A stretch of 64,000 nucleotides of DNA. Origin: Botryllus schlosseri (Eukaryota). Of this stretch, positions 1,996-56,901 are shown piece after piece (positions within the stretch are counted from its first letter, which is position 1; every line of letters starts with the position of its first letter). The notes beneath the pieces were generated by a model. It did not search any database. It saw only the letters and a list, made by a program, of their open reading frames with translations, and was not told the DNA's origin. Made by a program: the position numbers and the translations under genes. Where the stretch lies: assembly GCA_051294905.1 (NCBI GenBank), contig CM119371.1, positions 12,402,001 through 12,466,000 of the forward strand. The letters are read 5' to 3'.

Positions 1996-2475
1996 CAGAG
2001 ATGAGCATGGATTAGGATTAGGATTTGAAAAAAAAGGATTTGTGAAATTTTGTCGGAGTTGGATTGGATTAGGATTGGAGATTTTTTTCTGAACGGAATA
2101 GGATTTGGATTGGATTTACCGATTTTCTGGGAGATTGACATGTCGTGTGGCGAATAGCGACAAACTTTATTCAGATCAGTTATTAAAGTACTTAGGGTAC
2201 ACTACACTATGGTACACTCGGTGCAAATGAACATGAGAGGCGCAGCCCTATGCTGAGTTATCTTAAATCAAGAGAATCGTTGGTTGTGACAGAAAAAAAA
2301 TCCAATCCCTCCATTGCATAAATTAGCATTTTTTCTGAATTTCAAGTTGGAATCGGATTAGGATTGGACATGAACTTGAATATGAAAAAGTTATGGATTA
2401 GGATTTGGATTTGGATTTGATGCTTCGGATTTAGATTGGATTAGGACATGGAAATTCCAAATCCGCTCATCTCTG
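1996..2475. mobile_element. hAT-type MITE with GGATT subterminal repeats
   Basis: TIRs CAGAGATGAGC...GCTCATCTCTG; 8-bp TSD GTCGTGGG at 1988-1995; the right copy is GTCGTG (2476-2481) + [Polinton-like element] + GTCGTGGG (18124-18131). Confidence 0.85.
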
Positions 2476-4329
2476 GTCGTGAGTAGTATGATGGTCTGGG
2501 TTATACGCAGACCAATCCCAGAAGGCCACGTCGCCTTAATTGCCACGCCTACATTGCCACATCATCCGCCCATTGCCGCACCTATAGCACACCTATTGCC
2601 ACATCATCCATCCATTGCTATATCATCGCTGCATTGATTGCCGCATCTTGATACTTTTCTCAGATATTGTATTATGTGTATTTAGGACTAATATCATCCG
2701 TCCATATTTTTTAAACTTGATTTTATGTGTACAAGTTACGGTTTCTGTAGTTTCCACATTTTACGACTTATGATTGCTGCGTCAAAACTTACCTTGGCTA
2801 GAATCGACAGATTTTCTATTATGTGTATTTAGGACTATATATTTAAATTCCTATTCAGATTATACATAAATACGAAAACTATGATGTCTATGTAAGGTTA
2901 TATTCTCCGGATAATATTATTAATATCAAAATTCTACACATCATCACTAATTACTTAATATAAAATGCGATTTTGAGCGCTGCGACTTGATAATATGAAC
3001 CCCTACGCTTCTGATGCATGATTTTTTTTGTGATAAGGACCTAGGTAACATTCAGAGTCTGCAACGATTGTTTGGATATACATTATAGCAATACCCCACT
3101 AAACTATAGGCGGTTATATTACTCTATTGGTCAGAGATAACTCATCCGACCATAATTTTAAACTTGATTTTATGTATACAAGTTACTGTCTCTGCAGCCT
3201 CCACATTTTACGACTTATTTTCATTAGACGCAGGCAAGCGATTCTCCAGTTCCGAGCTACAGAAACAAATCACTCGCATGTGCGCGTTCCGAATAGTATT
3301 GTAGAATTTTCTAAAGTCGTAACAGCTTAGTAGCATATACGCGAATCCCAAGGTGAAAAATAATCGAACGAACTATAGCCGTAGGCGTGCGATTCGCAGG
3401 GCTTTATTTATACAAACTCTATCGATGCCTGTACGCGAACCCCTGCGTTAAAACGATTAGGTCTAATTACCACGTTCTGAAGCCGAAAATTTAGTCAACA
3501 TCATTGAGATAGCCATGATTTGAAGATGGTGATCGAGTGTGACAATAGCACTCGCCAAGGTTAGACAAACATAACCTTAAACTACTCTCTACTTCACAAA
3601 ATATAAAGTTATAAAAGTAAGCAGATTTCTATGAAAACCCGTGAAATAGAAGTAAAAGTAGCCTAGAAACATAACTACTTAATGAAAAATCGTGATTCTT
3701 GAAGTGACCACATTTCATACGATTCAGTCCTTTTCATGTCACTAGAATAAGGGTGATTAAACCAACAGTGAAACGCCGCCGGCGTCTTATAACGTAATAA
3801 TGTAAGCTGCGTCGGGTGCTGCTATAATGTTAGGAGCGAATATAGTAGAAAGTCCGCGTCTGGACACCTGTAAGCAAGTGCGCATACTACCGTAGTAAAC
3901 GCATAACAGAATTCATGCAAAAGTCTATATTGCTTTGTGGTGATTTTGATGTTGTTCCATACCGATTGGGAAGATAGGACTCCTAATTTCCTTATCCCGG
4001 AACGTAGCAAGAAAAATCGTATAAATTTTGTAAAGTAGATAGAAAACTACACTTTTCCGATGCAGTAAAGACTCTTACACGCTGGATTTTGTGCAGTATA
4101 TACTAATTTTACATTGCGGAGTATTCCATAAACGTTAATCCAGTGACCCTCCTTCTATTTTCAATCACGATCCGCTTATTATTCTAGGCTTCGAACCCCA
4201 CACCCAGTACGTTTTATGGGGATTAATATTTTTAGATTAAATATAGGGTATCGAGACTTCGTGAAACTTACTCGGAAATAGTTATTTCTACCCTAATTTA
4301 ATAGATTTCTCAGATATCGTAGCAACGGA

Positions 4330-4412
4330 ACTGGCTTCAGCCAGCGGTTAAGGCGTTGGACTTAAGTTTCAATGAACAAGTGTTCACATAGGTTCGAATC
4401 CCACACCCACTA
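4330..4412 (+). pseudogene. tRNA-Leu(UAA)-derived sequence
   Basis: GCGGTTAAGGCG-TTGGA-CTTAAGT-TTCAA anticodon arm, long variable arm TGAAC/GTTCA, GGTTCGAATCC T-loop; acceptor, D and T stems mismatched. Confidence 0.75.
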
Positions 4413-5551
4413 CGTTTACGAGAATTAATATTTTTAGATTCAAATTTAGCGTATTGAGTACTTTTTCTGCCTTTTTCAGTGCATTAGAGACGCTTACACT
4501 ATTGATTTCGTGAGCTTTACTTAAGTTTTATAAATTAACGTAAAAGTAGCCATTTCCGAGTAAGTAAAACGTTCGTATTGTAGGTTCATTTCTGCTTAAT
4601 ACTATAATCATCATGGAGTTGAAGCAGTCCAATATCAAAAACACCCGAAAGTATTTGTTGCATATAGCTAAAAACCTAATTGAGTACTCTGAAGAAGTAC
4701 AAGTAGCACAGTCTGTGGTATTTCTATGACATCGAAATTTAGCTAACCAGAACTTATACTTGAGTACTCCGAAATGTACAAGTACTTTACCTTTACACGA
4801 CGTTTCTGTAAAATGAATACTGATTTTATTAAAAAATAAAAAAGCACGAAAAATTACATTTTATCCCAAACCATCAGAATACTAAAGTAGCTTATCGCGT
4901 ATATGGACCTAAAGTGTTTATGATTTCAGTTCGCTTCAACTTCATGACATTTTCAGTATTAAACAGAAGTATAGGCCTAGAATGCTAACTTTCTTCGTAA
5001 ATTGCTACTTCTGCCTTAATTTAACGGATATATCTGAGATCATTGCTTTACTTAATCTCTCCAAAATGTGCATTTTACTAGTACGTCACCATCGAATCCC
5101 TCTGGCTATAACTACCCGATAGTATAATTGAGCCAAATACTCGAGTACTAATTTTAAAGTAGCTTAGGTATCTAAATGAACCAACGGTCAGTAAACCATT
5201 TCGAAGTGCAAGTACAGGAATATCATAGTTCTTGAACCGTGCTCAAATTTTGTAAAGTAGATAGAAAACTACACTATTCCGATGCAGTAAAGACTCTTAC
5301 ACGCTGGATTTTGTGCAGTATATACTAATTTTACATTGCGGAGTATTCCATAAACGTTAATCCAGTGATCCTCCTTCTATTTTCAATCACGATCCGCTTA
5401 TTATTCTAGGCTTCGAACCCCACACCCAGTACGTTTTATGGGGATTAATATTTTTAGATTAAATATAGCGTATCGAGACTTCGTGAAACTTACTCGGAAA
5501 TAGTTATTTCTACCCTAATTTAATAGATTTCTCAGATATCGTAGCAACGGA

Positions 5552-5634
5552 ACTGGCTTCAGCGAGCGGTTAAGGCGTTGGACTTAAGTTTCAATGAACA
5601 AGTGTTCACATAGGTTCGAATCCCACACCCACTA
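5552..5634 (+). pseudogene. tRNA-Leu(UAA)-derived sequence (tandem copy)
   Basis: Same as 4330-4412 but with GCGAGCGG in the D-arm region. Confidence 0.75.
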
Positions 5635-8310
5635 CGTTTACGAGAATTATTATTTTTAGATTCAAATTTAGCGTATTGAGTACTTTTTCTGCCTTTTTCA
5701 GCGCATTAGAGACGTTTACACTATTGATTTCGTGAGCTTTACTTAAGTTTTATAAATTAACGTAAAAGTAGCCATTTCCGAGTAAGTAAAACGTTCGTAT
5801 TGTAGGTTCATTTCTGCTTAATACTATAATTATCATGGAGTTGAAGCAGTCCAATATCAAAAACACCCGAAAGTATTTGTTGCATATAGCTAAAAACCTA
5901 ATTGAGTACTCTGAAGAAGTACAAGTAGCACAGTTTGTGGTATTTCTATGACATCGAAATTTAGCTAACCAGAACTTATACTTGAGTACTCCGAAATGTA
6001 CAAGTACTTTACCTTTACACGACGTTTCTGTAAAATGAATACTGATTTTATTAAAAAATAAAAAAGCACGAAAAATTACATTTTATCCCAAACCATCAGA
6101 ATACTAAAGTAGCTTATCGCGTATATGGACCTAATACTAAAGTGTTTATGATTTCAGTTCGCTTCAACTTCATGACATTTTCAGTATCAAACAGAAGTAT
6201 AGGCCTAGAATGCTAACTTTCTTCGTAAATTGCTACTTCTGCCTTAATTTAACGGATTTATCTGAGATCATTGCTTTACTTAATCTCTCCAAAATGTGCA
6301 TTATACTAGTACGTCACCATCGAATCCCTCTGGCTATAACTACCCGATAGTATAATTGAGCCAAATACTCGAGTACTAATTTTAAAGTAGCTTAGGTATC
6401 TAAATGAACCGACGATCAGTAAACCATTTCGAAGTGCAAGTACAGGAATATCATAGTTCTTGAACCGTGCTCAATGCTCAATAGACCATTTTTGCTATTT
6501 TTCATCGCCATAAATCATTCTGGACCGCGTAAACGCATTGTACGTTATAGATGAAACTTATGCAAATCCCCGGAACGCAACAAGAAAAATCGTATGAATT
6601 TGTAAACTACTTATTCATGACATAATAATAATTCTACTTGTACACATTTTCACATTTTATAACACTTTAAGTAGTACTTGAAAGTTTTGTCAAGTTAACA
6701 GGTTAAAAACTTATATTTGAGCACTACGAAATGTACAAGTACTTTACCTTTACACGACGTTTTGTAAAATGAATACTAATTAAAAAATAAAAAATAAAAA
6801 AGACCGAAAAATTACATGTTATCCCGGAACGCAACAAGAACAATCGTAGGAATTTGTAAACTACTTATTCGGTAAACTACTCTTTACTTCACAAAACAAA
6901 GTTACAAAAGTAAGCAGATTTATATGAAAACCCGTTAAATAGAAGTAAAAGTAATAACAATGCATCATACCAAATTTGATCGCAATTTCATGATGCAATA
7001 CCTTTAAAACTAACGCAGTTCTCTATACACTTTTGCGTAAATCTGTGTTTCGCTAGCGTAGCACGTACCTATACATAGTAAGCTTCAATAACGGAATTAC
7101 CATGCTAATAATCAAATCCCAACCCTGAAACTCGGTACGCGGTTGTAGGACATTATGAAAATACAACATACCAAATTTCATCAGACATTTCATGATGTAA
7201 CACCTTTAAAACCAACGCAGTTCTATACTGACTTTTGGCTAAATCTGTTATCCATAGCGCAGCACGTACCTATACATAGTCAACTTTAAAACGGAATTAC
7301 CATGTTAATAATCGGCTCCCCACCTTGAAACTCGGTACGCAGTTATTTTTTTCCTTACATCAAAACAACTAGAATGTGTAACTATACATTAAAATCGTTC
7401 CTAACCCTTTACACACCAGCGATAACTCGTACAAGCAACAAGTTTCGAGTATCGAGTTTTAAATAACGTGAAAGTATCACACCACAAACTGCGCTAACCT
7501 TCAAAGTTGATAAGTAAACAAGTACTTGCACTCCATCAGAATACCAAAGTAGCAGAAGTATAGACCTAGAATGCTAACTTTCTTCGTAAATACCTACTTC
7601 CAGCTTAATTTAATGGATTTATCTAACATCATTGCTTTACTTAATCTCTCCTAAATGTGCATTATACAAGTACGTCACCATCGAATCTCTCTGGCTGTAT
7701 CTATATGGCAGTATAATTGCGGCAAATACTCGAGCACTAATTTTAAAGTAGCTTAGGTATCTAAACGAGCTCCAGGACATTGTGATTATGCAGCATACCA
7801 AATTTCATCACACATTTCATGATGGAACAACTTTAAAACTAACGCAGTTCTTTAGCAACTTTTGCAAGTTTTAGAAAATATTATACCGACATCGCGACAT
7901 CTTTCAAAAACAAAACCATGATCAAAGCTTGAGAGATCATTTTTGCTATTTTTCATTGACATAAGTCATTCTGGAGTGCGAAAACGCATTGTACGATATA
8001 GATGAAACTTGAGCAAATCCTAGGATCCTCATTTTCAAAGTAGCTTAGATCTCAAAATAAGCCGGGATTTACAAATTATCTTTAGCATGAGATATATAGT
8101 GTATCTGCTCTCTAGAGTCCATATCACCTCTCGATGATAAAATTCAGCTTTACCATCTAATTCGCTTCCCAATTTATATTCTACGACACGATAACTTTCC
8201 TCCGTATGATCATTAAGGCTTCTATCTTTATTGCAGGACGGCTTTGTAGAATTCTTTGATAATACCGCTTTATACTACAATAAAGTATGGAAGGGCCTCA
8301 TTTTTCATAC

Positions 8311-8574
8311 AAGAGAAGTATATTCTTGTGTACACAATAGCGGAGCGAATATTTAAAATGTAGTAAGCAGGCCGATGGGTATTCATTGAGTTGTATAAGC
8401 ATAAAAAACATTCCCGCGCGCGCGCGTCTTAGGATTAGGTGGTAGGGTTAGGCAGGGTGTAGGAGCGCGCGGGAATGTTTTTATGCTTATACAACTCAAT
8501 GAATACCCATCGGCCTGCTTACTACATTTTAAATATTCTCTCCGCTATTGTGTACACAAGAATATACTTCTCTT
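8311..8574. mobile_element. Hairpin MITE-like element with G-rich, telomere-like loop
   Basis: ~110-bp near-perfect inverted repeats (AAGAGAAGTATATTCTTGTG...CACAAGAATATACTTCTCTT) around TTAGGATTAGGTGGTAGGGTTAGGCAGGG; no clean TSD. Confidence 0.65.
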
Positions 8575-10249
8575 AGTAACCAATTTCTCGTGAATTCCGA
8601 AACACATTGACGTGTGTTAACTTCTGGTATTACGTGATAATATCATTTTCATGTCTGATAATGTCACTTGTCAAGGTGATATAAACGTAAGCTCAAACTA
8701 CTTTGACATACACAGTCCTAAAAGTAGGTAGTTCCACCTGAAAAACCTTTCGAGTAGAGGGTAAGTTATCTACGGAAATAACCATCTATATTAGTTACTT
8801 TTAGATCCCTAATTGTACTTTTGCGCAATATTTGAGTTTTAGGAAGTACCCTTCAAAGTGAGCCTACATCTTGGATATTATCCAAAACCACATAAATTTC
8901 GCTTTGAACGAGGTATCCTTTAAAATAAGGTAGAAGTAGTCATTTCCGAGTAAGTAAAACGTTAGTACTCTAGGTCCATTTCTGTTCAATACTCTAGCTA
9001 TCATGAAGTTGATGTACTCCAATATCATAAGGACTTGAGAGTATTTGGTGCATGTAGGCAAAAAACCTACTTGGGTATTCTCACAAAGTGCGAGTACTAT
9101 ACTTAACAATTCTGAAAGTTAGCGCAGTGGTATGTTCCATTGTCATAATGTCCTACACCTGTGAACCGATCTTCAAGTTGCGCATTCAATGTTAAGCTCG
9201 GTAATTCCGTTATTAAAGTTGAGTATGCATAGGTACGTGCTACGCCCCCGCAAAAGTCGGCATGGAACTGGATTAGTTTTAAAGTTGTTCAATCATGAAA
9301 TGCGTCACAAAATTTGACATGGTGCATTGTCATAATGTCTTACATCGGTGTAGCGAGTTTCAAGGTTGGGAGTCGATTATTAACATGGTAATTCCGTTAT
9401 TAAAGTTGACTATGCATAGGTACGTGCTACGCTACGGAAAAACAGACTTAGCCAAAAGTCTGTATAGAACTGCGTTGGTTTTAAAGGTGTTACATCATGA
9501 AATGCGTGACGAAATTTGGTATGGTTCATTCTTATTATGTCCTACAACTGCGTACCAACGTTCAAGGTGAGAATTTGATGTTTAGCATACTAATTCTGTT
9601 ATTAAAATTGACTATGTATGGGTATATGCTGTGTTCACGAAAAGCAGATATGCGTAAAAGTCGGTATTCGACTGCGATAGTTTCAAAGGTGTTCCATCAT
9701 TAGATGTGTGATGATGAAATCTTGAAAAACCTCGATCTCAGCTACGCGGAGAACATTAACTTTACGCAACTCGGGACTATTATTTCGTGCGATCTAACAT
9801 ATTTGTCAGTTGTGAACTCGCGCTTGCAGTCAAAAGATTTCATTGCTATGCAGCTCAAAAACATTAAGGTCTGCGCGATTATTGCTGGGGCCGCGCATGT
9901 TGCCGAATACTATTCCAAGAAATTGACGCGTGTAAATGTGCCACGAATATAGTTGATTACGATTCCAAGAAGTCGGGGCACATCGACAATGCGAATTAGA
10001 ACATTATAAATAAAGTTGCGATGGCGATACGAATTAGAATGTTTACTTCCGACGTAAAGTAATTCACATTCTGAAAACTTCACATTTCTGTTCCCAGTAT
10101 TGTTATGTGCACAGCGAACGAGGCAGGCATCACAGGTAAGGTAGGATCCATGTATTTTTGTATCGATTTAAACTAAATTTAGCTATAATTTCTCGATGCG
10201 GTATTAGCTTACGTGGATTGTGCACGCAGATTGAATTACGTTGAGATTT

Positions 10250-11425
10250 CTCCAATAGCTAATAACGTAATAATTAGTTCTGTGCGCAGATATAATATTA
10301 ACCGGCAATATAGCCGAAGTCGCGTAAATTCGAATGTATATGCAAGTTCTCCGTTAAGGGTAGACTCTCTAGCCTCGCTTATTACTCGAATCTCGCGGTG
10401 GTTACAATATTGTGAATTAATTGAGTGGAGCTATACTGTATATTACTTATCGTCTATATTTAAATTCGGTATGCTAATGCATTGAGTTTGAAGCTAAATC
10501 GCTCCATTTCAGGTAGCGAAGAAAATGATTACTGCAGACTCGTTGACACACGCAAGCCCAGGACGACTTACAAGCGTATAATGATGGAGCAGATGGCACA
10601 GTCCTAAGGGTGCGTTATATCATTTCTCAATTATATTGAAAAAATCACCAGAGTTTCATGACTGAAGCTTTATCATTTCGAATGCTGAATAATCATATAT
10701 TACATCTATAGTAATACCTAGATCACGCTACGTCATAATTTGTGCTATTACAATATTAAGATTTAATTAAGTAGAGCTTCGCTATATTATTTACGACCTA
10801 TTTTTTTAAATTTAGCATGCTAATGCGTTGAGTTTGAAGCTACATCGTCTCATTTCATGTAGCGAAGAAAATGATCACGGCATATATTCGCGGACACATT
10901 CAAGCCCGGGACGAGTTACAAGCGTATGATGATGGAGCAAATTGCACAGCCCTAAAGGTGCGTTATATCATTTCTCAACTATTATGAAAAAATCGCCAGC
11001 GTACCGAGATTTCTCCTATATCGTACCATTTAAATAGCTATAACGTAATAATCAGTCCTGTGCGCGGCTATAATGTTAACCGGCAATATGCCCGAAGTCG
11101 CATAAATTCGAATGTATATGCAAGTTCTCTGTTAAGGGTAGACTATCTAGCCCCGCTTATTACTCGAATCTCGCTGTGGTTACAATATTATGAATTAATT
11201 AGGTAGAGCTATACTGTATATTATTTATCGTCTATACTTAAATTCGCTATGCTAATGCGTTGAGTTCGAAGCTAAATCGTTCCATTTCAGGTAGCGAAGA
11301 AAATGATTACTGCATACTCGTTGACACACGAATGCTCGGGGCGACTTACAAGCGTATAATGATGGAACAGATTGCACAGCCCTAAAGGTGCGTTATGTCA
11401 TTTCTCAAATATATTGAAAAAATCG
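10250..11425 (+). repeat. Diverged triplicated module in the spacer of element 1
   Basis: GTAGCGAAGAAAATGAT...GTGCGTTAT at 10513, 10859 and 11291, with repeated upstream flanks. Confidence 0.85.
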
Positions 11426-14342
11426 TCATTCTGGGTAACCCTAAAAATTCCCTTACGTAGCTGTAGAAATTTGACAAATTAAAAGTACAAAGAAGGTTTT
11501 CTTATGGGGCAATCTTTCGAGTATTCTCAGAAAAACTGTATACATCCTACAGAAAAATGGACGCGATTAAACGATGAAGAATTATATTCTTAAAATATTA
11601 CATGAGACAAAACATGCGAACATCCATTATCTTGATAATGCTATTACAATAGATGTCAGTCCGATTCCGAAAAACATGAGGCCCTTCCATACTTTATTGT
11701 AGTATAAAGCGGTATTATCAAAGAATTCTACAAAGCCGTCCTGCAATAAAGATAGAAGCCTTAATGATCATACGGAGGAAAGTTATCGTGTCGTAGAATA
11801 TAAATTGGGAAGCGAATTAGATGGTAAAGCTGAATTTTATCATCGAGAGGTGATATGGACTCTAGAGAGCAGATACACTATATATCTCATGCTAAAGATA
11901 ATTTGTAAATCCCGGCTTATTTTGAGATCTAAGCTACTTTGAAAATGAGGATCCTAGGATTTGCTCAAGTTTCATCTATATCGTACAATGCGTTTTCGCA
12001 CTCCAGAATGACTTATGTCAATGAAAAATAGCAAAAATGATCTCTCAAGCTTTGATCATGGTTTTGTTTTTGAAAGATGTCGCGATGTCGGTATAATATT
12101 TTCTAAAACTTGCAAAAGTTGCTAAAGAACTGCGTTAGTTTTAAATTTGTTCCATCATGAAATGTGTGATGAAATTTGGTATGCTGCATAATCACAATGT
12201 CCTGGAGCTCGTTTAGATACCTAAGCTACTTTAAAATTAGTGCTCGAGTATTTGCCGCAATTATACTGCCATATAGATACAGCCAGAGAGATTCGATGGT
12301 GACGTACTTGTATAATGCACATTTAGGAGAGATTAAGTAAAGCAATGATGTTAGATAAATCTATTAAATTAAGCTAGAAGTAGGTATTTACGAAGAAAGT
12401 TAGCATTCTAGGTCTATACTTCTGCTACTTTGGTATTCTGATGGAGTGCAAGTACTTGTTTACTTATCAACTTTGAAGGTTTGCGCAGTTTGTGGTGTGA
12501 TACTTTCACGTTATTTAAAACTCGATACTCGAAACTTGTTGCTTGTACGAGTTATCGCTGGTGTGTAAAGGGTTAGGAACGATTTTAATGTATAGTTACA
12601 CATTCTAGTTGTTTTGATGTAAGGAAAAAAATAACTGCGTACCGAGTTTCAAGGTGGGGAGCCGATTATTAACATGGTAATTCCGTTTTAAAGTTGACTA
12701 TGTATAGGTACGTGCTGCGCTATGGATAACAGATTTAGCCAAAAGTCGGTATAGAACTGCGTTGGTTTTAAAGGTGTTACATCATGAAATGTCTGATGAA
12801 ATTTGGTATGTTGTATTTTCATAATGTCCTACAACCGCGTACCGAGTTTCAGGGTTGGGATTTGATTATTAGCATGGTAATTCCGTTATTGAAGCTTACT
12901 ATGTATATGTACGTGCTACGCTAGCGAAACACAGATTTACGCAAAAGTGTATAGAGAACTGCGTTAGTTTTGAAGGTATTGCATCATGAAATTGCGATCA
13001 AATTTGGTATGATGCATTGTTATTACTTTTACTTCTATTTAACGGGTTTTCATATAAATCTGCTTACTTTTGTAACTTTGTTTTGTGAAGTAAAGAGTAG
13101 TTTACCGAATAAGTAGTTTACAAATTCCTACGATTTTTCTTGTTGCGTTCCGGGATAACATGTAATTTTTCGGTCTTTTTTATTTTTTATTTTTTAATTA
13201 GTATTCATTTTACAAAACGTCGTGTAAAGGTAAAGTACTTGTACATTTCGTAGTGCTCAAGTATAAGTTTTTAACCTGTTAACTTGACAAAACTTTCAAG
13301 TACTACTTAAAGTGTTATAAAATGTGAAAATGTGTACAAGTAGAATTATTATTATGTCATGAATAAGTAGTTTACAAATTCATACGATTTTTCTTGTTGC
13401 TTTCCGGGGATTTGCATAAGTTTCATCTATAACGTACAATGCGTTTACGCGGTCCAGAATGATTTATGGCGATGAAAAATAGCAAAAATGGTCTATTGAG
13501 CATTGAGCACGGTTCAAGAACTATGATATTCCTGTACTTGCACTTCGAAATGGTTTACTGATCGTCGGTTCATTTAGATACCTAAGCTACTTTAAAATTA
13601 GTACTCGAGTATTTGGCTCAATTATACTATCGGGTAGTTATAGCCAGAGGGATTCGATGGTGACGTACTAGTATAATGCACATTTTGGAGAGATTAAGTA
13701 AAGCAATGATCTCAGATAAATCCGTTAAATTAAGGCAGAAGTAGCAATTTACGAAGAAAGTTAGCATTCTAGGCCTATACTTCTGTTTAATACTGAAAAT
13801 GTCATGAAGTTGAAGCGAACTGAAATCATAAACACTTTAGTATTAGGTCCATATACGCGATAAGCTACTTTAGTATTCTGATGGTTTGAGATAAAATGTA
13901 ATTTTTCGTGCTTTTTTATTTTTTAATAAAATCAGTATTCATTTTACAGAAACGTCGTGTAAAGGTAAAGTACTTGTACATTTCGGAGTACTCACGTATA
14001 AGTTCTGGTTAGCTAAATTTCGATGTCATAGAAATACCACAAACTGTGCTACTTGTACTTCTTCAGAGTACTCAATTAGGTTTTTAGCTATATGCAACAA
14101 ATACTTTCGGGTGTTTTTGATATTGGACTGCTTCAACTCCATGATAATTATAGTATTAAGCAGAAATGAACCTACAATACGAACGTTTTACTTACTCGGA
14201 AATGGCTACTTTTACGTTAATTTATAAAACTTAAGTAAAGCTCACGAAATCGAAAGTGTAAACGTCTCTAATGCGCTGAAAAAGACAGAAAAAGTACTCA
14301 ATACGCTAAATTTGAATCTAAAAATATTAATTCTCGTAAACG

Positions 14343-14425
14343 TAGTGGGTGTGGGATTCGAACCTATGTGAACACTTGTTCATTGAAACTTAAGTCCAAC
14401 GCCTTAACCGCTCGCTGAAGCCAGT
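14343..14425 (-). pseudogene. tRNA-Leu(UAA)-derived sequence (mirror of 5552-5634)
   Basis: Reverse complement of 5552-5634. Confidence 0.75.
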
Positions 14426-15564
14426 TCCGTTGCTACGATATCTGAGAAATCTATTAAATTAGGGTAGAAATAACTATTTCCGAGTAAGTTTCACGAAGTC
14501 TCGATACGCTATATTTAATCTAAAAATATTAATCCCCATAAAACGTACTGGGTGTGGGGTTCGAAGCCTAGAATAATAAGCGGATCGTGATTGAAAATAG
14601 AAGGAGGATCACTGGATTAACGTTTATGGAATACTCCGCAATGTAAAATTAGTATATACTGCACAAAATCCAGCGTGTAAGAGTCTTTACTGCATCGGAA
14701 TAGTGTAGTTTTCTATCTACTTTACAAAATTTGAGCACGGTTCAAGAACTATGATATTCCTGTACTTGCACTTCGAAATGGTTTACTGACCGTTGGTTCA
14801 TTTAGATACCTAAGCTACTTTAAAATTAGTACTCGAGTATTTGGCTCAATTATACTATCGGGTAGTTATAGCCAGAGGGATTCGATGGTGACGTACTAGT
14901 ATAATGCACATTTTGGAGAGATTAAGTAAAGCAATGATCTCAGATATATCCGTTAAATTAAGGCAGAAGTAGCAATTTACGAAGAAAGTTAGCATTCTAG
15001 GCCTATACTTCTGTTTAATACTGAAAATGTCATGAAGTTGAAGCGAACTGAAATCATAAACACTTTAGGTCCATATACGCGATAAGCTACTTTAGTATTC
15101 TGATGGTTTGGGATAAAATGTAATTTTTCGTGCTTTTTTATTTTTTAATAAAATCAGTATTCATTTTACAGAAACGTCGTGTAAAGGTAAAGTACTTGTA
15201 CATTTCGGAGTACTCAAGTATAAGTTCTGGTTAGCTAAATTTCGATGTCATAGAAATACCACAGACTGTGCTACTTGTACTTCTTCAGAGTACTCAATTA
15301 GGTTTTTAGCTATATGCAACAAATACTTTCGGGTGTTTTTGATATTGGACTGCTTCAACTCCATGATAATTATAGTATTAAGCAGAAATGAACCTACAAT
15401 ACGAACGTTTTACTTACTCGGAAATGGCTACTTTTACGTTAATTTATAAAACTTAAGTAAAGCTCACGAAATCAATAGTGTAAACGTCTCTAATGCACTG
15501 AAAAAGGCAGAAAAAGTACTCAATACGCTAAATTTGAATCTAAAAATATTAATTCTCGTAAACG

Positions 15565-15647
15565 TAGTGGGTGTGGGATTCGAACCTATGTGAACACTTG
15601 TTCATTGAAACTTAAGTCCAACGCCTTAACCGCTGGCTGAAGCCAGT
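15565..15647 (-). pseudogene. tRNA-Leu(UAA)-derived sequence (mirror of 4330-4412)
   Basis: Reverse complement of 4330-4412. Confidence 0.75.
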
Positions 15648-15729
15648 TCCGTTGCTACGATATCTGAGAAATCTATTAAATTAGGGTAGAAATAACTATT
15701 TCCGAGTAAGTTTCACGAAGTCTCGATAC

Positions 15730-16348
15730 TAGGGCTGTTCAAAAATAACTTTTTTTCCTGAATCTTGCTGGTTACTTGATTAAATCGTTAGGTTGCCTTA
15801 AAAAACGACGCACACCAAATTTGAATTCATTCCGACAAATATTCGCGGGTTACGTAGAGTTTGAAAATTTTGGATTTGCCCAAAAACGCAAAAAAAAATT
15901 TTTCTCAAATTTTTTTGCCAACCCCATGAAATTGTTGGGCTGTCTTCAAAAACTATGCAAAACAAATTTGACTCAATTCCAAGCCGTAGAAGCGGAGTTA
16001 TTCCAGTTTTTCGGTGATAATTCTTGGATTATCCACCAATCAAGGATAATCCCAGAATTATCGAATAAAAACTGAAATAACTCCGCTTCTACGGCTTGGA
16101 ATTGAGTCAAATTTGTTTTGCATAGTTTTTGAAGACAGCCCAACAATTTCATGGGGTTGGCAAAAAAATTTGAGAAAATTTTTTTTTTGCGTTTTTGGGC
16201 AAATCCAAAATTTTCAAACTCTACGTAACCCGCGAATATTTGTCGGAATGAATTCAAATTTGGTGTGCGTCGTTTTTTAAGGCAACCTAACGATTTAATC
16301 AAGTAACCAGCAAGATTCAGGAAAAAAAGTTATTTTTGAACAGCCCTA
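15730..16348. mobile_element. Foldback hAT-type MITE inserted in the right arm only
   Basis: TAGGGCTGTTCAAAAA...TTTTTGAACAGCCCTA, palindromic over nearly its whole length; exact 8-bp TSD CTCGATAC (15722-15729, 16349-16356); empty site in the left arm near 4248-4255. Confidence 0.92.
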
Positions 16349-19300
16349 CTCGATACCCTATATTTAATCTAAAAATATTAATCCCCATAAAACGTACTGG
16401 GTGTGGGGTTCGAAGCCTAGAATAATAAGCGGATCGTGATTGAAAATAGAAGGAGGGTCACTGGATTAACGTTTATGGAATACTCCGCAATGTAAAATTA
16501 GTATATACTGCACAAAATCCAGCGTGTAAGAGTCTTTACTGCATCGGAATAGTGTAGTTTTCTATCTACTTTACCAAATTTATACGATTTTTCTTGCTAC
16601 GTTCCGGGATAAGGAAATTAGGAGTCCTATCTTCCCAATCGGTATGGAACAACATCAAAATCACCACAAAGCAATATAGACTTTTGCATGAATTCTGTTA
16701 TGCGTTTACTACGGTAGCATGCGCACTTGCTTACAGGTGTCCAGACGCGGACTTTCTACTATATTCGCTCCTAACATTATAGCAGCACCCGACGCAGCTT
16801 ACATTATTACGTTATAAGACGCCGGCGGCGTTTCACTGTTGGTTTAATTACCCTTATTCTAGTGACATGAAAAGGACTGAATCGTATGAAATGTGGTCAC
16901 TTCAAGAATCACGATTTTTCATTAAGTAGTTATGTTTCTAGGCTACTTTTACTTCTATTTCACGGGTTTTCATAGAAATCTGCTTACTTTTATAACTTTA
17001 TATTTTGTGAAGTAGAGAGTAGTTTAAGGTTATGTTTGTCTAACCTTGGCGAGTGCTATTGTCACACTCGATCACCATCTTCAAATCATGGCTATCTCAA
17101 TGATGTTGACTAAATTTTCGGCTTCAGAACGTGTTAATTAGACCTAATCGTTTCTTAACGCAGGGGTTCGCGTACAGGCATCGATAGAGTTTGTATAAAT
17201 AAAGCCCTGCGAATCGCACGCCTACGGCTATAGTTCGTTCGATTATTTTTCACCTTGGGATTCGCGTATATGCTACTAAGCTGTTACGACTTTAGAAAAT
17301 TCTACAATACTATTCGGAACGCGCACATGCGAGTGATTTGTTTCTGTAGCTCGGAACTGGAGAATCGCTTGCCTGCGTCTAATGAAAATAAGTCGTAAAA
17401 TGTGGAGGCTGCAGAGACAGTAACTTGTATACATAAAATCAAGTTTAAAATTATGGTCGGATGGGTTATCTCTGACCAATAGAGTAATATAACCGCCTAT
17501 AGTTTAGTGGGGTATTGCTATAATGTATATCCAAACAATCGTTGCAGACTCTGAATGTTACCTAGGTCCTTATCACAAAAAAATCATGCATCAGAAGCGT
17601 AGGGGTTCATATTATCAAGTCGCAGCGCTCAAAATCGCATTTTATATTAAGTAATTAGTGATGATGTGTAGAATTTTGATATTAATAATATTATCCGGAG
17701 AATATAACCTTACATAGACATCATAGTTTTCGTATTTATGTATAATCTGAATAGGAATTTAAATATATAGTCCTAAATACACATAATAGAAAATCTGTCG
17801 ATTCTAGCCAAGGTAAGTTTTGACGCAGCAATCATAAGTCGTAAAATGTGGAAACTACAGAAACCGTAACTTGTACACATAAAATCAAGTTTAAAAAATA
17901 TGGACGGATGATATTAGTCCTAAATACACATAATACAATATCTGAGAAAAGTATCAAGATGCGGCAATCAATGCAGCGATGACATAGCAATGGATGGATG
18001 ATGTGGCAATAGGTGTGCTATAGGTGCGGCAATGGGCGGATGATGTGGCAATGTAGGCGTGGCAATTAAGGCGACGTGGCCTTCTGGGATTGGTCTGCGT
18101 ATAACCCAGACCATCATACTACTGTCGTGGGCCTCCACATGGTGATAATTCGCCCTCAGCCCCTTGAGCCTGTACGCTTTTTCCCCGCTACTTATTATCA
18201 GCAACATTGGGTCTATTGTGATGCGGGGAAAATTTCTATAATTCATGTTTGAATAGGTTAATCTGATCGGGAATTGCATATATTTTGCTATCAATTTTGT
18301 ATCCCCTCTCTATACACGTAATGAGATATACCAGTAGAGCTGCGTGAGGAGTGTGGGAAAAGGCAGGACCTCTAAATAAGAATTAAACATCTTCGGGCGG
18401 ACCCGTTATTATATTGACTTCGTTACATTATGCTATTCCGTGACCTCCTATATCTGCTACGTCAAAAGATATGGAAATCGCCAAAACTACGAGGCACACA
18501 CGATTTCAAATTGGTATTGCTTTACTGGTAAATAATTTTTACCTGCGGGATGTTATTTGTCCTGTGGGATTCAGATCGCCAGGACAGGAACATTCGGCGC
18601 CAGCCATTTAGCCGCCCAAGGACAGTTAAACATACATGTATATTGTATATATATCGATGTTTTCGGTCACCACAAGGGCATTCCTTCTCGGCCAAGGTCA
18701 TCTCGCTGCTGTTCGTTCTGGAACACTTCTCGGAGTCGCATGTTACATGGCCTATAACTACATATGTCTTGGTGCGTCGCGGCGTCGTGGCCGAAACCGA
18801 ACTCTCCATTTCTATAAATTTTACGTATTTTCTTGGGCGACGGGTACCCAATAATTAGGATATTCGGCAATATTAAATCACCTACCCAGCGCCAAAAAAA
18901 CCTGAAAAAGTGGCATAAATTTCCAAAAATATACTCTATAATTTATGTTAATTCACGAAATAATTTTGTTTCCCTACGAGCTCGCCCGGCAGTTTCCACA
19001 CTACCCAACACTTTTGTCGTCACAGAGCAGCTATTTGCTGGTTTGACTACACAAAACCACACAACACCAGTACGCAAGACAATCGCCTATAATTGCAACA
19101 TGAAACTTATTGTGAATCGATACCGGTGACGATCAAAATTTCGCGAAGGCGTAATTTCACGTCATACTGGTCGTGCTGGAGGCGTTTGTGACGCCATCAT
19201 TTGCCATCCAGAGTTAAAAATGAGATTTGTGAACAACACGCAGCATAATTTTCGATACATAGATTCCAGAGCAGTTAACTGGTAACGGTAATCGCGCATG

Positions 19301-46713: not shown

Positions 46714-48777
46714 GTTACAATGTTGGGACACCACAGTTCATGACACCATCTTTAGTTGTGAAAAGAACAGTGGATTACACCTAATTTAACGCGCGAGGAA
46801 GCACAAGTTTGCTCCGTAATATTAAACTACTTTATTTGCACCCCTGGGCAGGTTTCAAATTGATTATCGCTTAGAGTGCAGCGGCCAGAGTAGTAGACTT
46901 AGCTGGGTTATAGACCGGCCAATCACAGAAGGCCACGTCATCCTAATTGCCACGCCTATATGACGCCCATTGTCACGCCTACAGGATGCCCATTGCCACG
47001 TCACCTGCCACTGCCACATCGTGTGTATTTATGAGCAAATTTCATTGTTTTGTGAATTTCAATACCGGTTTTCCATGGATATTTAGCAATATGTATTGAA
47101 TAACTTGAAATGTATCATCACTAATTAATTAATATAAAATGCGATTTTAAGCGCTGCGACTTGAAAATATTAATATAATAACTTACTTTTTTGGATATAA
47201 ATAACATTCAGATTACACATAAATTTCGAAAACTATGATGTCAATAGAATACTATATTTGCCAGATATTCACAGATAACACTCATCAACGTTGAACTAGG
47301 CGCGGGGTTCTGTGATGATATATCAATATTCTACACATCATCACTAATTAATTAATTCATATAAAATGCGATTTTGAGCGCAGACAGATCGCGGTTTCGA
47401 TTGCCGAGGTCTCCGCATTTCATGACCTAATATGAGCGCACACTACAACTGAATTCATTCCAATACCTGCAAATTTACTTTGCATGTCGAGTATAAGGAT
47501 AATTTAATCAGCGCTAAACGCCAACGGACTAGCCGTAGGCGCACAATGCTCGGCGTTACAATTAAACAAACTTTTCGCGGCAGGTACGCGATTCCTAACG
47601 GTTTCTACAGTTTCCACATTTCACGACTTATTTTCTTTGGACGCATACAAGCGATTCCCAAGGTCGAGGCTATGGAAACAAATCAAGCATGAGTACGTAA
47701 ATCTCGAGCTTAGATCTCCGAGATTCTTGTATGCAACTAACATTATAGACAACCATTCGACAATATTCAACCAGCAATAATGCTTTCGCTATAGTGCATC
47801 ATGTACAGCGACACGCTGATCAATTCAAATTCAACAATGGGATCCCCCGCACAATTATGAAGCCCGATTTTCTCGTTGTTATAATTAAACGAACACCTTC
47901 GCCGCAGGTACGCGATCACCGACGTTATAATGATAAGGACAAATTAGCCGCATGAAATCGAGTCTAATGAATATAACGACAGACAACAAGTTAGTTGAAA
48001 AGTAAAACTAATCGTGACCGATGCAAGACGGCGTGAAACAGCGCTTTCGCTCGATTCTTGTAGTGACCACATTTCATACGATTCAGTCCTTTTCATGTCA
48101 CCAGAATAAGGGTGATTAAACCGACAGTGAAACGCCGCCGGCGTCTTATAACGTAATAATGTAAGCTGCGTCGGGTGCTGCTATAATGTTCGGAGCGAAT
48201 ATAGTAGAAAGTCCACGTCTGGACACCTGTATGCAGATGCGCATACTACCGCAGTAAAACGCATAACAGAATGCAGGCAAAATTCGATATTGCTTTGTGA
48301 TGATTTTGATGTTGTTCCATACCGATTGGGAAGATAGGACTCCTAATTTCCTAACTAACTACAAAATCCCTAGTAACATAGTCGGACGCATAACGGAATT
48401 TACGCAAAATCGGCATTGCTCTGCGATAATTTTGACACCTATGTTTTGATAATAACTTGCTTCCGAGAAATAAATAACATTCATTATACGTTAGATGATA
48501 CTTTTCCTTGATATTCTATTATGTGTATTTAGGGCTTATGCGACATCATTATGTTGGCGACAGGCCTGATTTGAACACACTAATTTTGCGAATTAAACTT
48601 ATCGCTCAACACGGACACTCAATGAAGAGCACCCTGGAGACCCACATAAATGCTCCACAATTCTTGACATATAATATACTGAGCATATAATAAGATGACA
48701 AAACCTATACTTGAGTACTCCGAAATGTGCAAGTACTTTACCTTTAATATACATTTTAATAATATATTCATATTAAA

Positions 48778-48826
48778 ACCCGAAGCTTTTCGAGCTGACA
48801 CTTTTCAAGGGCAATCGTCAGCAAAT
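48778..48826 (-). ncRNA. Hammerhead-ribozyme-like motif in Penelope pLTR
   Basis: CTGACGA...CGAAA-AGCTT core order; PLE pLTRs commonly carry minimal hammerheads; stems I and II weak. Confidence 0.45.
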
Positions 48827-48924
48827 GGAGAATTTCAAAAACATGCATCTAGCTACATTGCATACAACCAATTATGACGTCATAGAAACAAACAACATGA
48901 AATACAGGCAAACCGCGAGCGCAG

Positions 48925-51471: not shown

Positions 51472-51477
51472 ATTAAA

Positions 51478-51526
51478 ACCCGAAGCTTTTCGAGCTGACA
51501 CTTTTCAAGGGCAATCGTCAGCAAAT
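51478..51526 (-). ncRNA. Hammerhead-ribozyme-like motif in Penelope pLTR
   Basis: Identical motif just upstream of the ATG at 51471. Confidence 0.45.
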
Positions 51527-51624
51527 GGAGAATTTCAAAAACATGCATCTAGCTACATTGCATACAACCAATTATGACGTCATAGAAACAAACAACATGA
51601 AATACAGGCAAACCGCGAGCGCAG

Positions 51625-51954
51625 CTAGTGGCCAATTTTCAGATTCACTAAAAATTCCTTCTGCTGACACAAGCGCGGTCGGTGGATTTTAATATAAGTC
51701 GATTCCAGTGCAGACAGATGGAAATTAGTGCGGCCTCTACCTAATATAGAAAATCTTTCATCGCAATAGTTTTTAGCGCAAGTTGCATTCTCAGCCAAAT
51801 GCTTGCCGATGGCAGAGTTCATAGCCATGGCCTGATTACGTTCTAGTAATCGCAGATCAGTTACGGCTGCGTCTTCGCGAGAGTCCAGTGTGCGTGATCT
51901 AATAACGCTCGGAACATGTTGTTTGATGCGTTCCTGCAAGCGCTGTGTTGTTCT
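51625..51954 (-). pseudogene. 3' fragment of the Penelope ORF forming the upstream partial tandem repeat
   Basis: Matches 48925-49254 at an offset of 2700 bp. Confidence 0.9.
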
Positions 51955-52222
51955 CAGAGAATGCAACTTGCGCTAAAAACTATTGCGATGAAAGATTTTC
52001 TATATTAGGTAGAGGCCGCACTAATTTCCATCTGTCTGCACTGGAATCGACTTATATTAAAATCCACTGACCGCGCTTGTGTCAGCAGAAGGAATTTTTA
52101 GTGAGTCTGAAAATTGGCCACTAGCTGCCCTCGCGGTTTGCCTGTATTTCATGTTGTTTGTTTCTATGACGTCATAATTGGTTGTATGCAATGTAGCTAG
52201 ATGCATGTTTTTGAAATTCTCC

Positions 52223-52271
52223 ATTTGCTGACGATTGCCCTTGAAAAGTGTCAGCTCGAAAAGCTTCGGGT
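52223..52271 (+). ncRNA. Hammerhead-ribozyme-like motif in Penelope pLTR
   Basis: Identical motif just upstream of the ATG at 52278. Confidence 0.45.
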
Positions 52272-52277
52272 TTTAAT

Positions 52278-56754: not shown

Positions 56755-56852
56755 CTGCGCTCGCGGTTTGCCTGTATTTCATGTTGTTTGTTTCTATGAC
56801 GTCATAATTGGTTGTATGCAATGTAGCTAGATGCATGTTTTTGAAATTCTCC

Positions 56853-56901
56853 ATTTGCTGACGATTGCCCTTGAAAAGTGTCAGCTCGAAAAGCTTCGGG
56901 T
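56853..56901 (+). ncRNA. Hammerhead-ribozyme-like motif in Penelope pLTR
   Basis: Identical motif in the 3' pLTR of copy 2. Confidence 0.45.

What the first reader, a model, noticed from the sequence alone, without database searches (positions are those of the whole stretch)
2482..18123. 15.6-kb gene-less giant palindrome with Polinton/Maverick ends: candidate copy-back defective Polinton
Seen: AGTAGT...ACTACT ends, exact 6-bp TSD GTCGTG, ~5.8-kb near-identical inverted arms around a 3.4-kb spacer, no long ORF. Known: Polintons have AG...CT ends, 6-bp TSDs made by a retroviral-type integrase, and TIRs usually of about 1 kb or less, plus pPolB, integrase, ATPase, protease and capsid genes. Inference: a cis-only parasite mobilised in trans. 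Its TIR may have been extended by template switching during protein-primed strand-displacement replication, like copy-back defective viral genomes. The TSD argues for integration as one unit rather than local chromosomal inverted duplication.
Basis: partly seen in the sequence, partly recalled or inferred. Interest (0 to 1): 0.88.

Follow-up and report, generated by a model that had tools for sequence, protein, structure and literature searches.

The report
Gene-less palindromic satellite of Polinton virus
A 15.6-kb piece of mobile DNA with no genes, built as one giant hairpin, carries the end signals of a virus-like Polinton element that is abundant in the same animal genome and most likely borrows that element's enzymes to copy and insert itself.

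Summary
Observation confirmed. Window 2482-18123 is a 15,642-bp insertion with (AGT)2/(ACT)2 ends, an exact 6-bp target duplication (GTCGTG), 5.8-kb arms 99.4-99.5% alike and no ORF above 118 aa.

It belongs to a large family: 145+145 end motifs genome-wide. Exact 6-bp duplications flank 11 of 12 gene-less and 4 of 5 gene-bearing copies examined. Its first 125 bp match both ends of autonomous Polintons in the same genome. These encode pPolB, an rve-chromo integrase and an A32-type ATPase; at least 35 loci have open integrase frames.

New here:
- The family's normal form is a complete 15.2-16.0-kb palindrome with a conserved centre.
- The window's "3.4-kb spacer" is the inner right arm; its left-arm mirror (~3.1 kb) was deleted.
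- A 619-bp MITE later hit the right arm.
- In six two-copy comparisons, 181 substitutions separating copies are mirrored in both arms and none is arm-specific. The arms are therefore re-copied from one another between insertions, as in snap-back defective genomes. That mechanism is inferred, not shown.

The scan noted this family before in two other windows of this genome. Read-level checks could not be run.

The parts
1996..2475 (.). Older 480-bp hAT-like MITE (TIR CAGAGATGAGC) that received the insertion. Its 8-bp TSD GTCGTGGG is intact at 1988-1995 and is split by the element on the right.
2476..2481 (.). Left copy of the 6-bp target-site duplication GTCGTG.
2482..18123 (.). The whole gene-less palindromic element, 15,642 bp.
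2482..2487 (+). Terminal (AGT)2 motif, mirrored as (ACT)2 at 18118-18123. It is at the left end of 17 of 17 copies examined; the right end reads ACTACT in 16 of 17 (one copy reads ACTTCT).
   Evidence: motif described for vertebrate Mavericks in PMC8097293
2488..2501 (+). 14-nt block that differs strongly between copies but is the same at both ends of a copy (mirror at 18104-18117). The window's version is identical to that of autonomous copy C12a and of palindromic copy C8a.
2482..2606 (+). About 125 bp shared with both ends of the autonomous Polinton C12:22379673-22395758: 97.6% to its left end; 90% over 146 bp to its right end. The mirror lies at 17999-18123.
2482..8305 (+). Left arm, 5,824 bp. 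It contains a ~1.22-kb unit twice (about 4027-5246 and 5249-6474), as does the right arm.
8303..8311 (.). Deletion junction. Relative to the complete palindrome C8a, about 3.1 kb (C8a 4527-7624) is missing from the left arm here.
8311..8574 (.). Family palindrome centre: 97-nt stems (8311-8407 and 8478-8574), GC-rich clamps (AACATTCCCGCGCGC at 8407-8421 and, mirrored, at 8465-8479) and an asymmetric loop of about 43 nt rich in TTAGG-like motifs. As single-stranded DNA it folds at -128 kcal/mol, z = -32.7.
8306..11671 (.). Window 8311-12632 is collinear with C8a 7625-11944 at 98.96%.
9249..9711 (.). 202-bp tandem repeat, 2.3 copies. Related arrays fill the inner arms of other copies.
9890..11248 (+). 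Patchy similarity (65-93%) to the non-coding left subterminal region (426-2075) of the autonomous copy.
11672..18123 (-). Right arm, 6,452 bp including the nested MITE.
15730..16348 (.). Nested 619-bp foldback MITE (ends TAGGGCTGTTC..., 305-nt arms) with 8-bp TSD CTCGATAC, in the right arm only. The left arm keeps the empty site at 4248-4255.
18124..18129 (.). Right copy of the 6-bp target-site duplication GTCGTG.
46889..62826 (.). Second member of the same family in this window: 15,938 bp, TSD GGCCAG, outer arms 1,857 bp at 98.9%. It is interrupted by an inverted pair of Penelope-like retroelement ORFs.

Best explanation
The element is a non-autonomous, gene-less derivative of a Polinton/Maverick family that is abundant in this genome.

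Conserved features. It keeps only the cis signals: the (AGT)2 termini and about 125 bp or more of terminal repeat shared with the autonomous elements. It also keeps a conserved central turn-around module. Family members cluster at about 15-16 kb in length.

Helper functions (inferred). The helpers supply the protein-priming polymerase, the integrase and probably the capsid and packaging ATPase in trans.

Family form. The normal form is a complete palindrome, the DNA equivalent of a snap-back defective genome. Differences between copies are always present in both arms, while damage acquired in the chromosome is one-sided. The two arms must therefore be copied from one another in each round of extrachromosomal replication. 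Two routes fit. The displaced or nascent strand may fold at the centre so that one arm templates the other. Alternatively, mismatches may be corrected in the folded single strand.

After integration the arms drift apart like the two LTRs of a retrotransposon. The window copy then lost about 3.1 kb of its left arm beside the centre and gained a 619-bp MITE in its right arm.

Shown: the anatomy, family membership, shared termini, TSDs, the mirrored versus one-sided differences, and the helper gene content.
Inferred: trans-mobilisation, the hairpin or copy-back step, and packaging.
For: (1) Ends and TSD. AGTAGT is at the left end of 17 of 17 copies, and ACTACT at the right end of 16 of 17 (C8a reads ACTTCT). 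The 6-bp TSD is exact in 11 of 12 gene-less copies (one is 5/6) and in 4 of 5 gene-bearing copies (one is 4/6). The MITE TSD gives an internal empty-site proof.

(2) Helper. Copy C12:22379673-22395758 has the same first 50 nt at both ends. It encodes an rve+chromodomain integrase (3.9e-12), an A32-type ATPase (2.7e-8) and a 942-aa ORF. Most of the 76 relatives of that ORF carry PF03175. Its 425-aa ORF lies nearest Atlas clusters in which PF21738 (DJR-like domain) is on 15-24% of members (a lead only). At least 35 loci have open integrase frames at 96-100% identity, and 36 have an uninterrupted 425-aa ORF at 95-100%.

(3) Deeper sharing of termini. Both arms of C8a carry 536-830 bp of the helper's left end at 97.8%. 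Other inverted pairs carry about 470-500 bp of the helper's right end.

(4) Complete palindromes. C7, C25, C11, C1b, C12b and C8a align to their own reverse complement end to end at 99.27-99.78%.

(5) One shared centre. It was found in every copy tested (8 of 8 for C7 7633-7785) and at 40 scored loci.

(6) Arm relationships. The arms are each other's nearest neighbour in 11 of 11 copies: 0-0.35% apart, against a median of 2.96% between copies. Six quartet tests gave 181 mirrored copy-specific sites, 0 arm-specific sites and 132 single-arm sites, of which 115 are in the quartet with the old copy C2.

(7) Arm content. The arms of five structural subfamilies share only 17-61% of their sequence, yet each copy is a perfect palindrome of 15,201-16,048 bp. 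The termini and the centre are the shared modules.

(8) One-sided changes are chromosomal events: the 619-bp MITE with its own TSD, the 3.1-kb deletion and the Penelope-like insertion in the second member. C2's arms have drifted to 96.3% with an intact TSD, so homogenisation in place is weak.

(9) Length. Of 40 end pairs on contigs C1-C4, 26 have no integrase or capsid-like hit inside, and 12 of those 26 measure 15.0-16.7 kb. Of the 14 with such hits, 7 measure 17.0-18.5 kb.
Against: - No read-level, population or extrachromosomal evidence. Everything rests on one assembly, and polishing could have made the arms slightly more alike than they are.
- Apart from the terminal 125-830 bp and a 65-93% similar inner block, the arm interior has no detectable origin in the helper. 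A strict 'deleted copy of this helper' is therefore not shown. The origin of the centre is unknown.
- No match to the terminal motif in viral or metagenome contigs.
- Gene conversion in place cannot be excluded as a contributor.
- The length clustering could partly reflect recent bursts from a few masters.
- The 'gene-less' label of the 26 pairs rests on hit lists that score only the best candidates.
- The helper copy studied in full has only a 4/6 TSD.
Confidence: 0.72

Rival explanations
1. The element is Polinton-dependent, but no hairpin or copy-back stage is involved. The palindrome arose once, copies are moved by the helper integrase as plain double-stranded DNA, and the arms are kept alike by intrachromosomal gene conversion between inverted repeats, as in large chromosomal palindromes.
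For: Arm identity of 99.3-99.8% and mirrored differences are also what strong arm-to-arm conversion would give. No extrachromosomal form has been seen.
Against: One-sided events persist unconverted: the 619-bp MITE, the 3.1-kb deletion and the 8-kb Penelope-like insertion. C2's arms have drifted to 96.3%, with 115 single-arm differences in its quartet, although its TSD is intact. Whole terminal modules of 0.5-0.8 kb and 1.2-kb duplications are mirrored, which is more than short conversion tracts usually move.
Confidence: 0.15
2. One reading: this very copy was made by a copy-back jump of the polymerase over a 3.4-kb loop, which extended a short TIR to 5.8 kb.
For: Arms around an unpaired 3,366-nt segment.
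Against: The unpaired segment contains the family's own centre, off the midpoint (8311-8574 against midpoint 9988). It is collinear at 98.96% with the centre and inner right arm of a complete palindrome, C8a. The junction looks like a simple deletion.
Confidence: 0.05
3. A foldback (FB-like) transposon of an unrelated DDE-transposase superfamily whose ends merely resemble Polinton ends.
For: Long inverted arms containing tandem subrepeats and no genes. An earlier follow-up in this scan left this reading open (e1-7786796) or preferred it (e1-7786340).
Against: It shares 125-830 bp at 97-98% with the ends of pPolB/integrase-encoding elements. The 14-nt variable blocks are identical between gene-less and gene-bearing copies. 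The TSD is 6 bp, not the 9 bp recalled for Drosophila FB. No other transposase ORF lies inside.
Confidence: 0.04
4. A fold-back assembly artefact or a local chromosomal inverted duplication.
For: Palindromes are a known failure mode of long-read libraries (recalled). No reads could be laid.
Against: The flanks on the two sides are different, non-palindromic DNA with an exact 6-bp duplication, which also fits the split 8-bp TSD of the host MITE. Twelve copies at different loci have different TSDs. The arms carry one-sided nested insertions with their own TSDs.
Confidence: 0.02

Closest known systems
Polinton/Maverick elements (polintoviruses), autonomous form
   Same: (AGT)2/(ACT)2 end motif, 6-bp TSD and terminal inverted repeats. 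The termini are shared at 97-98% with elements in the same genome that encode pPolB, rve integrase and an A32-type ATPase. The end motif, TSD and TIR range of 46-1,447 bp for vertebrate Mavericks were read as passages of PMC8097293.
   Different: No genes at all. The inverted repeat is the whole element (arms 7.6-8.0 kb in undamaged members), not up to 1.4 kb. There is a conserved central turn-around module. By the definition that all Polintons encode pPolB and integrase (start of the abstract of PMC5499653, listing), it is a dependent derivative, not a Polinton proper.
Snap-back / copy-back defective viral genomes
   Same: Complementarity over nearly the full length, no coding capacity, retained terminal replication signals and presumed dependence on a helper (definitions read as passages of PMC13506859). 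AAV snapback genomes are a DNA-virus case (start of the abstract of PMC8235507, listing).
   Different: The known cases are transient by-products within infections. Here it is a germline-integrated, long-lived, diversifying family with its own subfamilies and dozens of copies. Most of the arm interior is not recognisably derived from the helper.
Foldback transposons (Drosophila FB and relatives)
   Same: Long inverted arms with internal tandem repeats, little or no coding capacity and high copy number.
   Different: The termini, TSD length and partner element are those of Polintons. The FB features are recalled, not checked in a paper here.
Palindromic and hairpin deletion derivatives of protein-primed linear plasmids (Kluyveromyces lactis killer plasmid derivatives) and inverted-repeat defective adenovirus DNA
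   Same: Replicons that use terminal-protein priming are recalled to throw off hairpin monomers and palindromic dimers that carry one genome end twice. This is the closest mechanistic precedent for one arm templating the other.
   Different: Those are extrachromosomal laboratory observations. Nothing of these papers was seen here (recalled; PMC354034 was not held). Here the evidence is integrated copies only.
Non-autonomous DNA transposons / MITEs
   Same: They keep only the ends of an autonomous partner and outnumber it: 26 pairs without gene hits against 14 with, on four contigs.
   Different: Size of 15-16 kb rather than under 1 kb, complete palindromy, and arms renewed between insertions.

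Membership tests
Polinton/Maverick (cis signature) | Repeated trinucleotide or dinucleotide end motif, (AGT)2//(ACT)2 or (AG)3//(CT)3 | tested here: met
   AGTAGT at 2482 and ACTACT at 18123. The left end reads AGTAGT in 17 of 17 copies; the right end reads ACTACT in 16 of 17. Motif as described in PMC8097293.
Polinton/Maverick (cis signature) | 6-bp target-site duplication | tested here: met
   GTCGTG on both sides. Exact in 11 of 12 gene-less and 4 of 5 gene-bearing copies. Confirmed by the split 8-bp MITE TSD.
Polinton/Maverick (cis signature) | Terminal inverted repeats shared with an autonomous element of the same genome | tested here: met
   125 bp at 97.6% to one end and 146 bp at 90% to the other end of C12:22379673-22395758. 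C8a shares 536-830 bp.
Polinton/Maverick (full member) | Encodes a protein-primed family B polymerase and a retroviral-type integrase | tested here: not met
   No ORF above 118 aa in 2482-18123. The partner elements meet it: rve+Chromo at 3.9e-12, and relatives of the 942-aa ORF carry PF03175.
Polinton/Maverick (full member) | Capsid proteins, maturation protease and packaging ATPase | tested here: not met
   Absent from the window element. In the partner, the ATPase is met (Pox_A32, 2.7e-8). The major capsid protein is only a lead (Atlas 0.98 to clusters with PF21738 on 15-24% of members). The protease was not confirmed (no Pfam, PHROG or PDB hit).
Snap-back defective genome | Reverse-complementary over nearly the whole length, with no coding capacity | tested here: met
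   Six family members align to their own reverse complement end to end at 99.27-99.78%. The window copy does so except for a one-sided 3.1-kb deletion and a 619-bp insertion.
Snap-back defective genome | Sequence derived from the parental (helper) genome | tested here: inconclusive
   Only the terminal 125-830 bp (left-end type), about 470-500 bp (right-end type) and an inner block at 65-93% match the helper. The rest and the centre have no detected source.
Snap-back defective genome | Generated and propagated by the helper's replicase through template switching | not testable with these tools
   Indirect only: 181 mirrored against 0 arm-specific differences, and one-sided chromosomal damage.
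Foldback (FB-like) transposons | Long inverted arms built of tandem subrepeats | tested here: met
   Arms of 5.8 kb hold 19-bp, 202-bp and ~1.22-kb repeats.
Foldback (FB-like) transposons | FB-type termini and 9-bp TSD (recalled for Drosophila FB) | tested here: not met
   6-bp TSD and Polinton termini. The FB values are recalled, not read here.

The most novel reading that the evidence does not exclude
These are true satellite genomes of an active animal Polinton virus. They would be replicated by its protein-priming polymerase, turned around at a dedicated central hairpin module so that a single arm regenerates the whole genome, and held near helper length because they are packaged in its capsids. 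They would be locked in a specificity race with the helper through the 14-nt hypervariable block next to the (AGT)2 origin, which gene-less and gene-bearing copies exchange. If so, integrated copies record a replication mode of Polintons that has never been observed directly.
Probability: 0.3. Interest if true: 0.85.

Novelty: new variant of a known kind. Interest (0 to 1): 0.62.

Why it matters
As far as I recall, protein-primed, strand-displacing replication of Polintons has been inferred from gene content and has not been observed directly. A family whose two halves are demonstrably re-copied from one another between insertions is natural-history evidence for a single-stranded or hairpin replication stage.

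It also gives an LTR-like clock for dating Polinton-type insertions. It maps the minimal cis requirements as the termini plus, perhaps, a centre and a length. It offers a ready probe: look for free 15-16-kb palindromes or 7.7-kb hairpins in this animal.

It further shows that virus-like transposons can carry a large load of gene-less parasites. On four contigs, 26 pairs without gene hits stood against 14 with.

In five searches of the held library (judged from listings only) I found no description of fully palindromic non-autonomous Polintons. That library lacks most subscription journals and Repbase reports.

Tried and rejected
No read-level confirmation and no empty-allele test resulted.
- The right flank turned out to be a high-copy repeat, so no allelic empty site could be sought that way. 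A paralogue (L055) helped reveal the host MITE instead.
- The terminal motif was scanned in viral contigs and metagenome contigs: 0 matches each.
- PHROGs gave nothing for 7 helper ORFs. PDB sequence search gave nothing for the 155-aa protease-like ORF; its protease identity rests on a recalled motif only.
- Kapitonov and Jurka 2006 (PMC1450207) and Daniell and Mullenbach 1978 (PMC354034) are not held.
- Rejected after checking: that C2 lacks a TSD and has an extra AGT from slippage. Moving the boundary by 3 nt gives an exact TSD, ACTGGG.
- Rejected after checking: that the spacer is a copy-back loop.
- Rejected after checking: that a strict length limit holds. Members of 5-13 kb and 19-24 kb exist.
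- Considered and left open: whether the TTAGG-rich, G-rich loop stalls the polymerase.

Full report
**1.

- The element runs from 2482 (AGTAGTATGATGG...) to 18123 (...CCATCATACTACT), with GTCGTG immediately outside both ends.
- The left arm 2482-8305 pairs with the right arm 11672-18123 in four collinear blocks at 99-100%. By BLAST the arms are 99.44% and 99.48% alike.
- 3,366 nt lie between the arms.
- Thirteen stop-to-stop ORFs of 80 aa or more overlap the element; the longest is 118 aa.

**2. It integrated as one unit**

- The DNA to its left (1996-2475) is a 480-bp hAT-like MITE with the terminal repeat CAGAGATGAGC. This MITE had itself landed in a high-copy repeat.
- The MITE's 8-bp duplication GTCGTGGG is whole on its left (1988-1995). 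On its right it reads GTCGTG, then the 15.6-kb element, then GTCGTGGG.
- The target and the exact six duplicated bases can therefore be read from the locus itself.

**3. It is one of a family**

- The window lies in a 495-Mb eukaryotic assembly; the runs that hold the flank are labelled as a marine organism.
- The terminal 200 bp finds many inverted pairs 8.7-21 kb apart.
- A 20-nt terminal motif occurs 145 times forward and 145 times reverse genome-wide, against 0/0 for the reversed control.
- I read 12 gene-less copies in full, including a second one in this window at 46889-62826.
- Eleven of the 12 have an exact 6-bp duplication, each different, and one has 5/6.

**4. The partner is a Polinton**

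Copy C12:22379673-22395758 (16,086 bp) has the same first 50 nt at both ends as the window element. It shares 125 bp (97.6%) and 146 bp (90%) with it. It encodes:

- an integrase with rve and chromo domains;
- an A32-type packaging ATPase;
- a BIR-domain protein;
- a 942-aa ORF with 76 relatives, most of which are 1,050-1,500-aa proteins annotated PF03175, the protein-primed polymerase family;
- a 425-aa ORF nearest to Atlas clusters that partly carry a double-jelly-roll domain (a lead only).

Genome searches listed at least 35 loci with open integrase frames at 96-100% identity. They also showed three further identity tiers at about 83%, 66-69% and 53-55%. Thirty-six loci have an uninterrupted 425-aa ORF at 95-100%. 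Four more gene-bearing copies whose ends I read all have exact 6-bp duplications and (AGT)2 ends.

The end motif, the 6-bp duplication and a TIR range of 46-1,447 bp are what passages of PMC8097293 describe for vertebrate Mavericks. Those passages tie the repeated end motif to jumping-back in protein-primed initiation.

**5.

- Six copies (15,201-16,048 bp) align to their own reverse complement from the first base to the last at 99.27-99.78%.
- All share one centre. The arms end in ...AACATTCCCGCGCGC and flank an asymmetric loop of about 43-45 nt rich in TTAGG-like motifs.
- This centre is present in every copy tested and at 40 scored loci.
- In the window it sits at 8311-8574, not at the midpoint of the big arms. 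It folds very strongly as single-stranded DNA.

**6. The 'spacer' explained**

- The closest relative, C8a (C8:17424560-17440068; complete palindrome; TSD TACGCG), is collinear at 98.96% with window 8311-12632. That stretch covers its centre and inner right arm.
- The window's left arm stops where C8a position 4526 lies.
- So about 3.1 kb (C8a 4527-7624) was lost from the left arm beside the centre. The junction is a simple deletion with a few odd bases.
- The other asymmetry is a 619-bp foldback MITE with its own 8-bp duplication in the right arm. The left arm keeps the empty site.

**7. The arms are renewed between insertions**

- In 11 of 11 copies the two arms are each other's nearest neighbour: 0-0.35% apart over the terminal 1,150 bp, against 1.2-3% (median 2.96%) between most copies.
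- In six quartets (two copies by two arms), 181 sites separate the copies with both arms of each copy agreeing. Zero sites group left arms against right arms. A further 132 sites are confined to one arm of one copy, 115 of them in the quartet with the old copy C2.
- Larger differences behave the same way. A ~1.22-kb duplication, 0.5-0.8-kb terminal modules taken from the helper's left or right end and whole arm interiors are mirrored.
- The arms of five structural subfamilies share only 17-61% of their sequence, yet each copy is a perfect palindrome.
- In contrast, events that carry chromosomal signatures are one-sided. C2's arms have drifted to 96.3% behind an intact duplication.
- The simplest reading is that one arm templates the other, or the two are corrected against each other, during the extrachromosomal phase. 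They then diverge after integration, like a pair of LTRs.

**8. What is conserved suggests what is needed**

- Across copies, the terminal ~1.5 kb and about 450 bp at the centre are shared, while the mid-arm is variable filler.
- On contigs C1-C4, 40 end pairs could be formed. Of the 26 without an integrase or capsid-like hit inside, 12 measure 15.0-16.7 kb. Of the 14 with such hits, 7 measure 17.0-18.5 kb.
- A length mode kept across subfamilies with unrelated filler hints at packaging, but members of 5-13 kb and 19-24 kb also exist.
- Directly after (AGT)2 lies a 14-nt block that differs sharply between copies. The first 40 nt are identical at the two ends in 15 of 17 copies, with one mismatch in the other two. 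Some gene-less and gene-bearing copies share the same block.

**9. Comparison with what is known**

- By cis features it belongs with Polintons. By the definition that Polintons encode pPolB and integrase (start of the abstract of PMC5499653, listing), it is a dependent derivative.
- Its architecture matches the definition of snap-back defective genomes (passages of PMC13506859). AAV snapback genomes are a DNA-virus example (start of the abstract of PMC8235507, listing).
- Hairpin and palindromic derivatives of protein-primed yeast linear plasmids and of adenovirus are recalled precedents that I could not read here.
- Five library searches found no description of palindromic non-autonomous Polintons (listings only). 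PMC6431247 mentions foldback elements only in another context (passages).
- This scan had already noted the family in two other windows of this genome (e1-7786796, e1-7786340). There it left open, or preferred, a generic foldback transposon.
- The shared termini and the helper copies shown here decide for the Polinton link.

**10. Limits**

- There is one assembly and no reads.
- No free form has been seen.
- Only 12 of perhaps a hundred gene-less copies were read.
- The source of the arm filler and of the centre is unknown.
- The mechanism is inferred.

Noticed in passing
window 46889-62826: A second family member: 15,938 bp, TSD GGCCAG, outer arms 1,857 bp at 98.9%, and no canonical centre motif. 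About 8 kb of it is an inverted pair of Penelope-like retroelement ORFs (859 and 815 aa; RVT_1 plus a weak GIY-YIG hit) inserted in the left half. Without them the element is about 7.7 kb.
   Followed up: partly
window 2488-2501 and 18104-18117; ends of L031-L064 copies: The 14 nt right after the (AGT)2 terminus are hypervariable between copies, while positions from 31 onward are conserved. The first 40 nt are identical at both ends in 15 of 17 copies. The same block is shared by gene-less and gene-bearing copies (window = C8a = C12a; C25 = C12:26318382-26335977). This could be an origin or integrase specificity determinant, or a low-fidelity initiation zone.
   Followed up: partly
window 1996-2475 and 15730-16348: Two unrelated MITEs with 8-bp TSDs (hAT-like): a 480-bp one hosting the insertion, and a 619-bp near-perfect foldback nested in the right arm.
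   Followed up: yes
window 8422-8464: The unpaired loop at the palindrome centre is G-rich on one strand, with TTAGG/TTAGGG-like repeats. Its first half is conserved between copies and its second half varies. Whether it stalls a polymerase or is telomere-derived is unknown.
   Followed up: no
L045:4669-5301 (+), in autonomous copy C12:22379673-22395758: A BIR (inhibitor-of-apoptosis) domain ORF (2e-18) sits near the right end of the autonomous Polinton, as an accessory gene.
   Followed up: no
L044:8908-9849 and L051:36-2864 (both -): The polymerase region of this autonomous copy is read as two overlapping ORFs (942 aa and 314 aa) in different frames, whereas most relatives are single proteins of 1,050-1,500 aa. 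This could be an intron, a frameshift or a real split; I did not examine it further.
   Followed up: no
G000:C4:11847322-11865343 (coordinates only): A gene-bearing copy appears to have the helper's right-end sequence (about 470 bp) at both ends, that is, a lengthened TIR in an autonomous element. This is seen from hit coordinates only.
   Followed up: no
genome-wide: Integrase hits fall into four identity tiers (96-100%, ~83%, 66-69%, 53-55%) with many open frames. This suggests several coexisting Polinton lineages, with 119 matches scored.
   Followed up: no
C8a (L052+L053) positions 1-830 and 4950-6310: Each arm of this complete palindrome holds the helper's left non-coding end twice, in opposite orientations. 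This hints at an older, smaller fold-back event nested inside the present palindrome.
   Followed up: no
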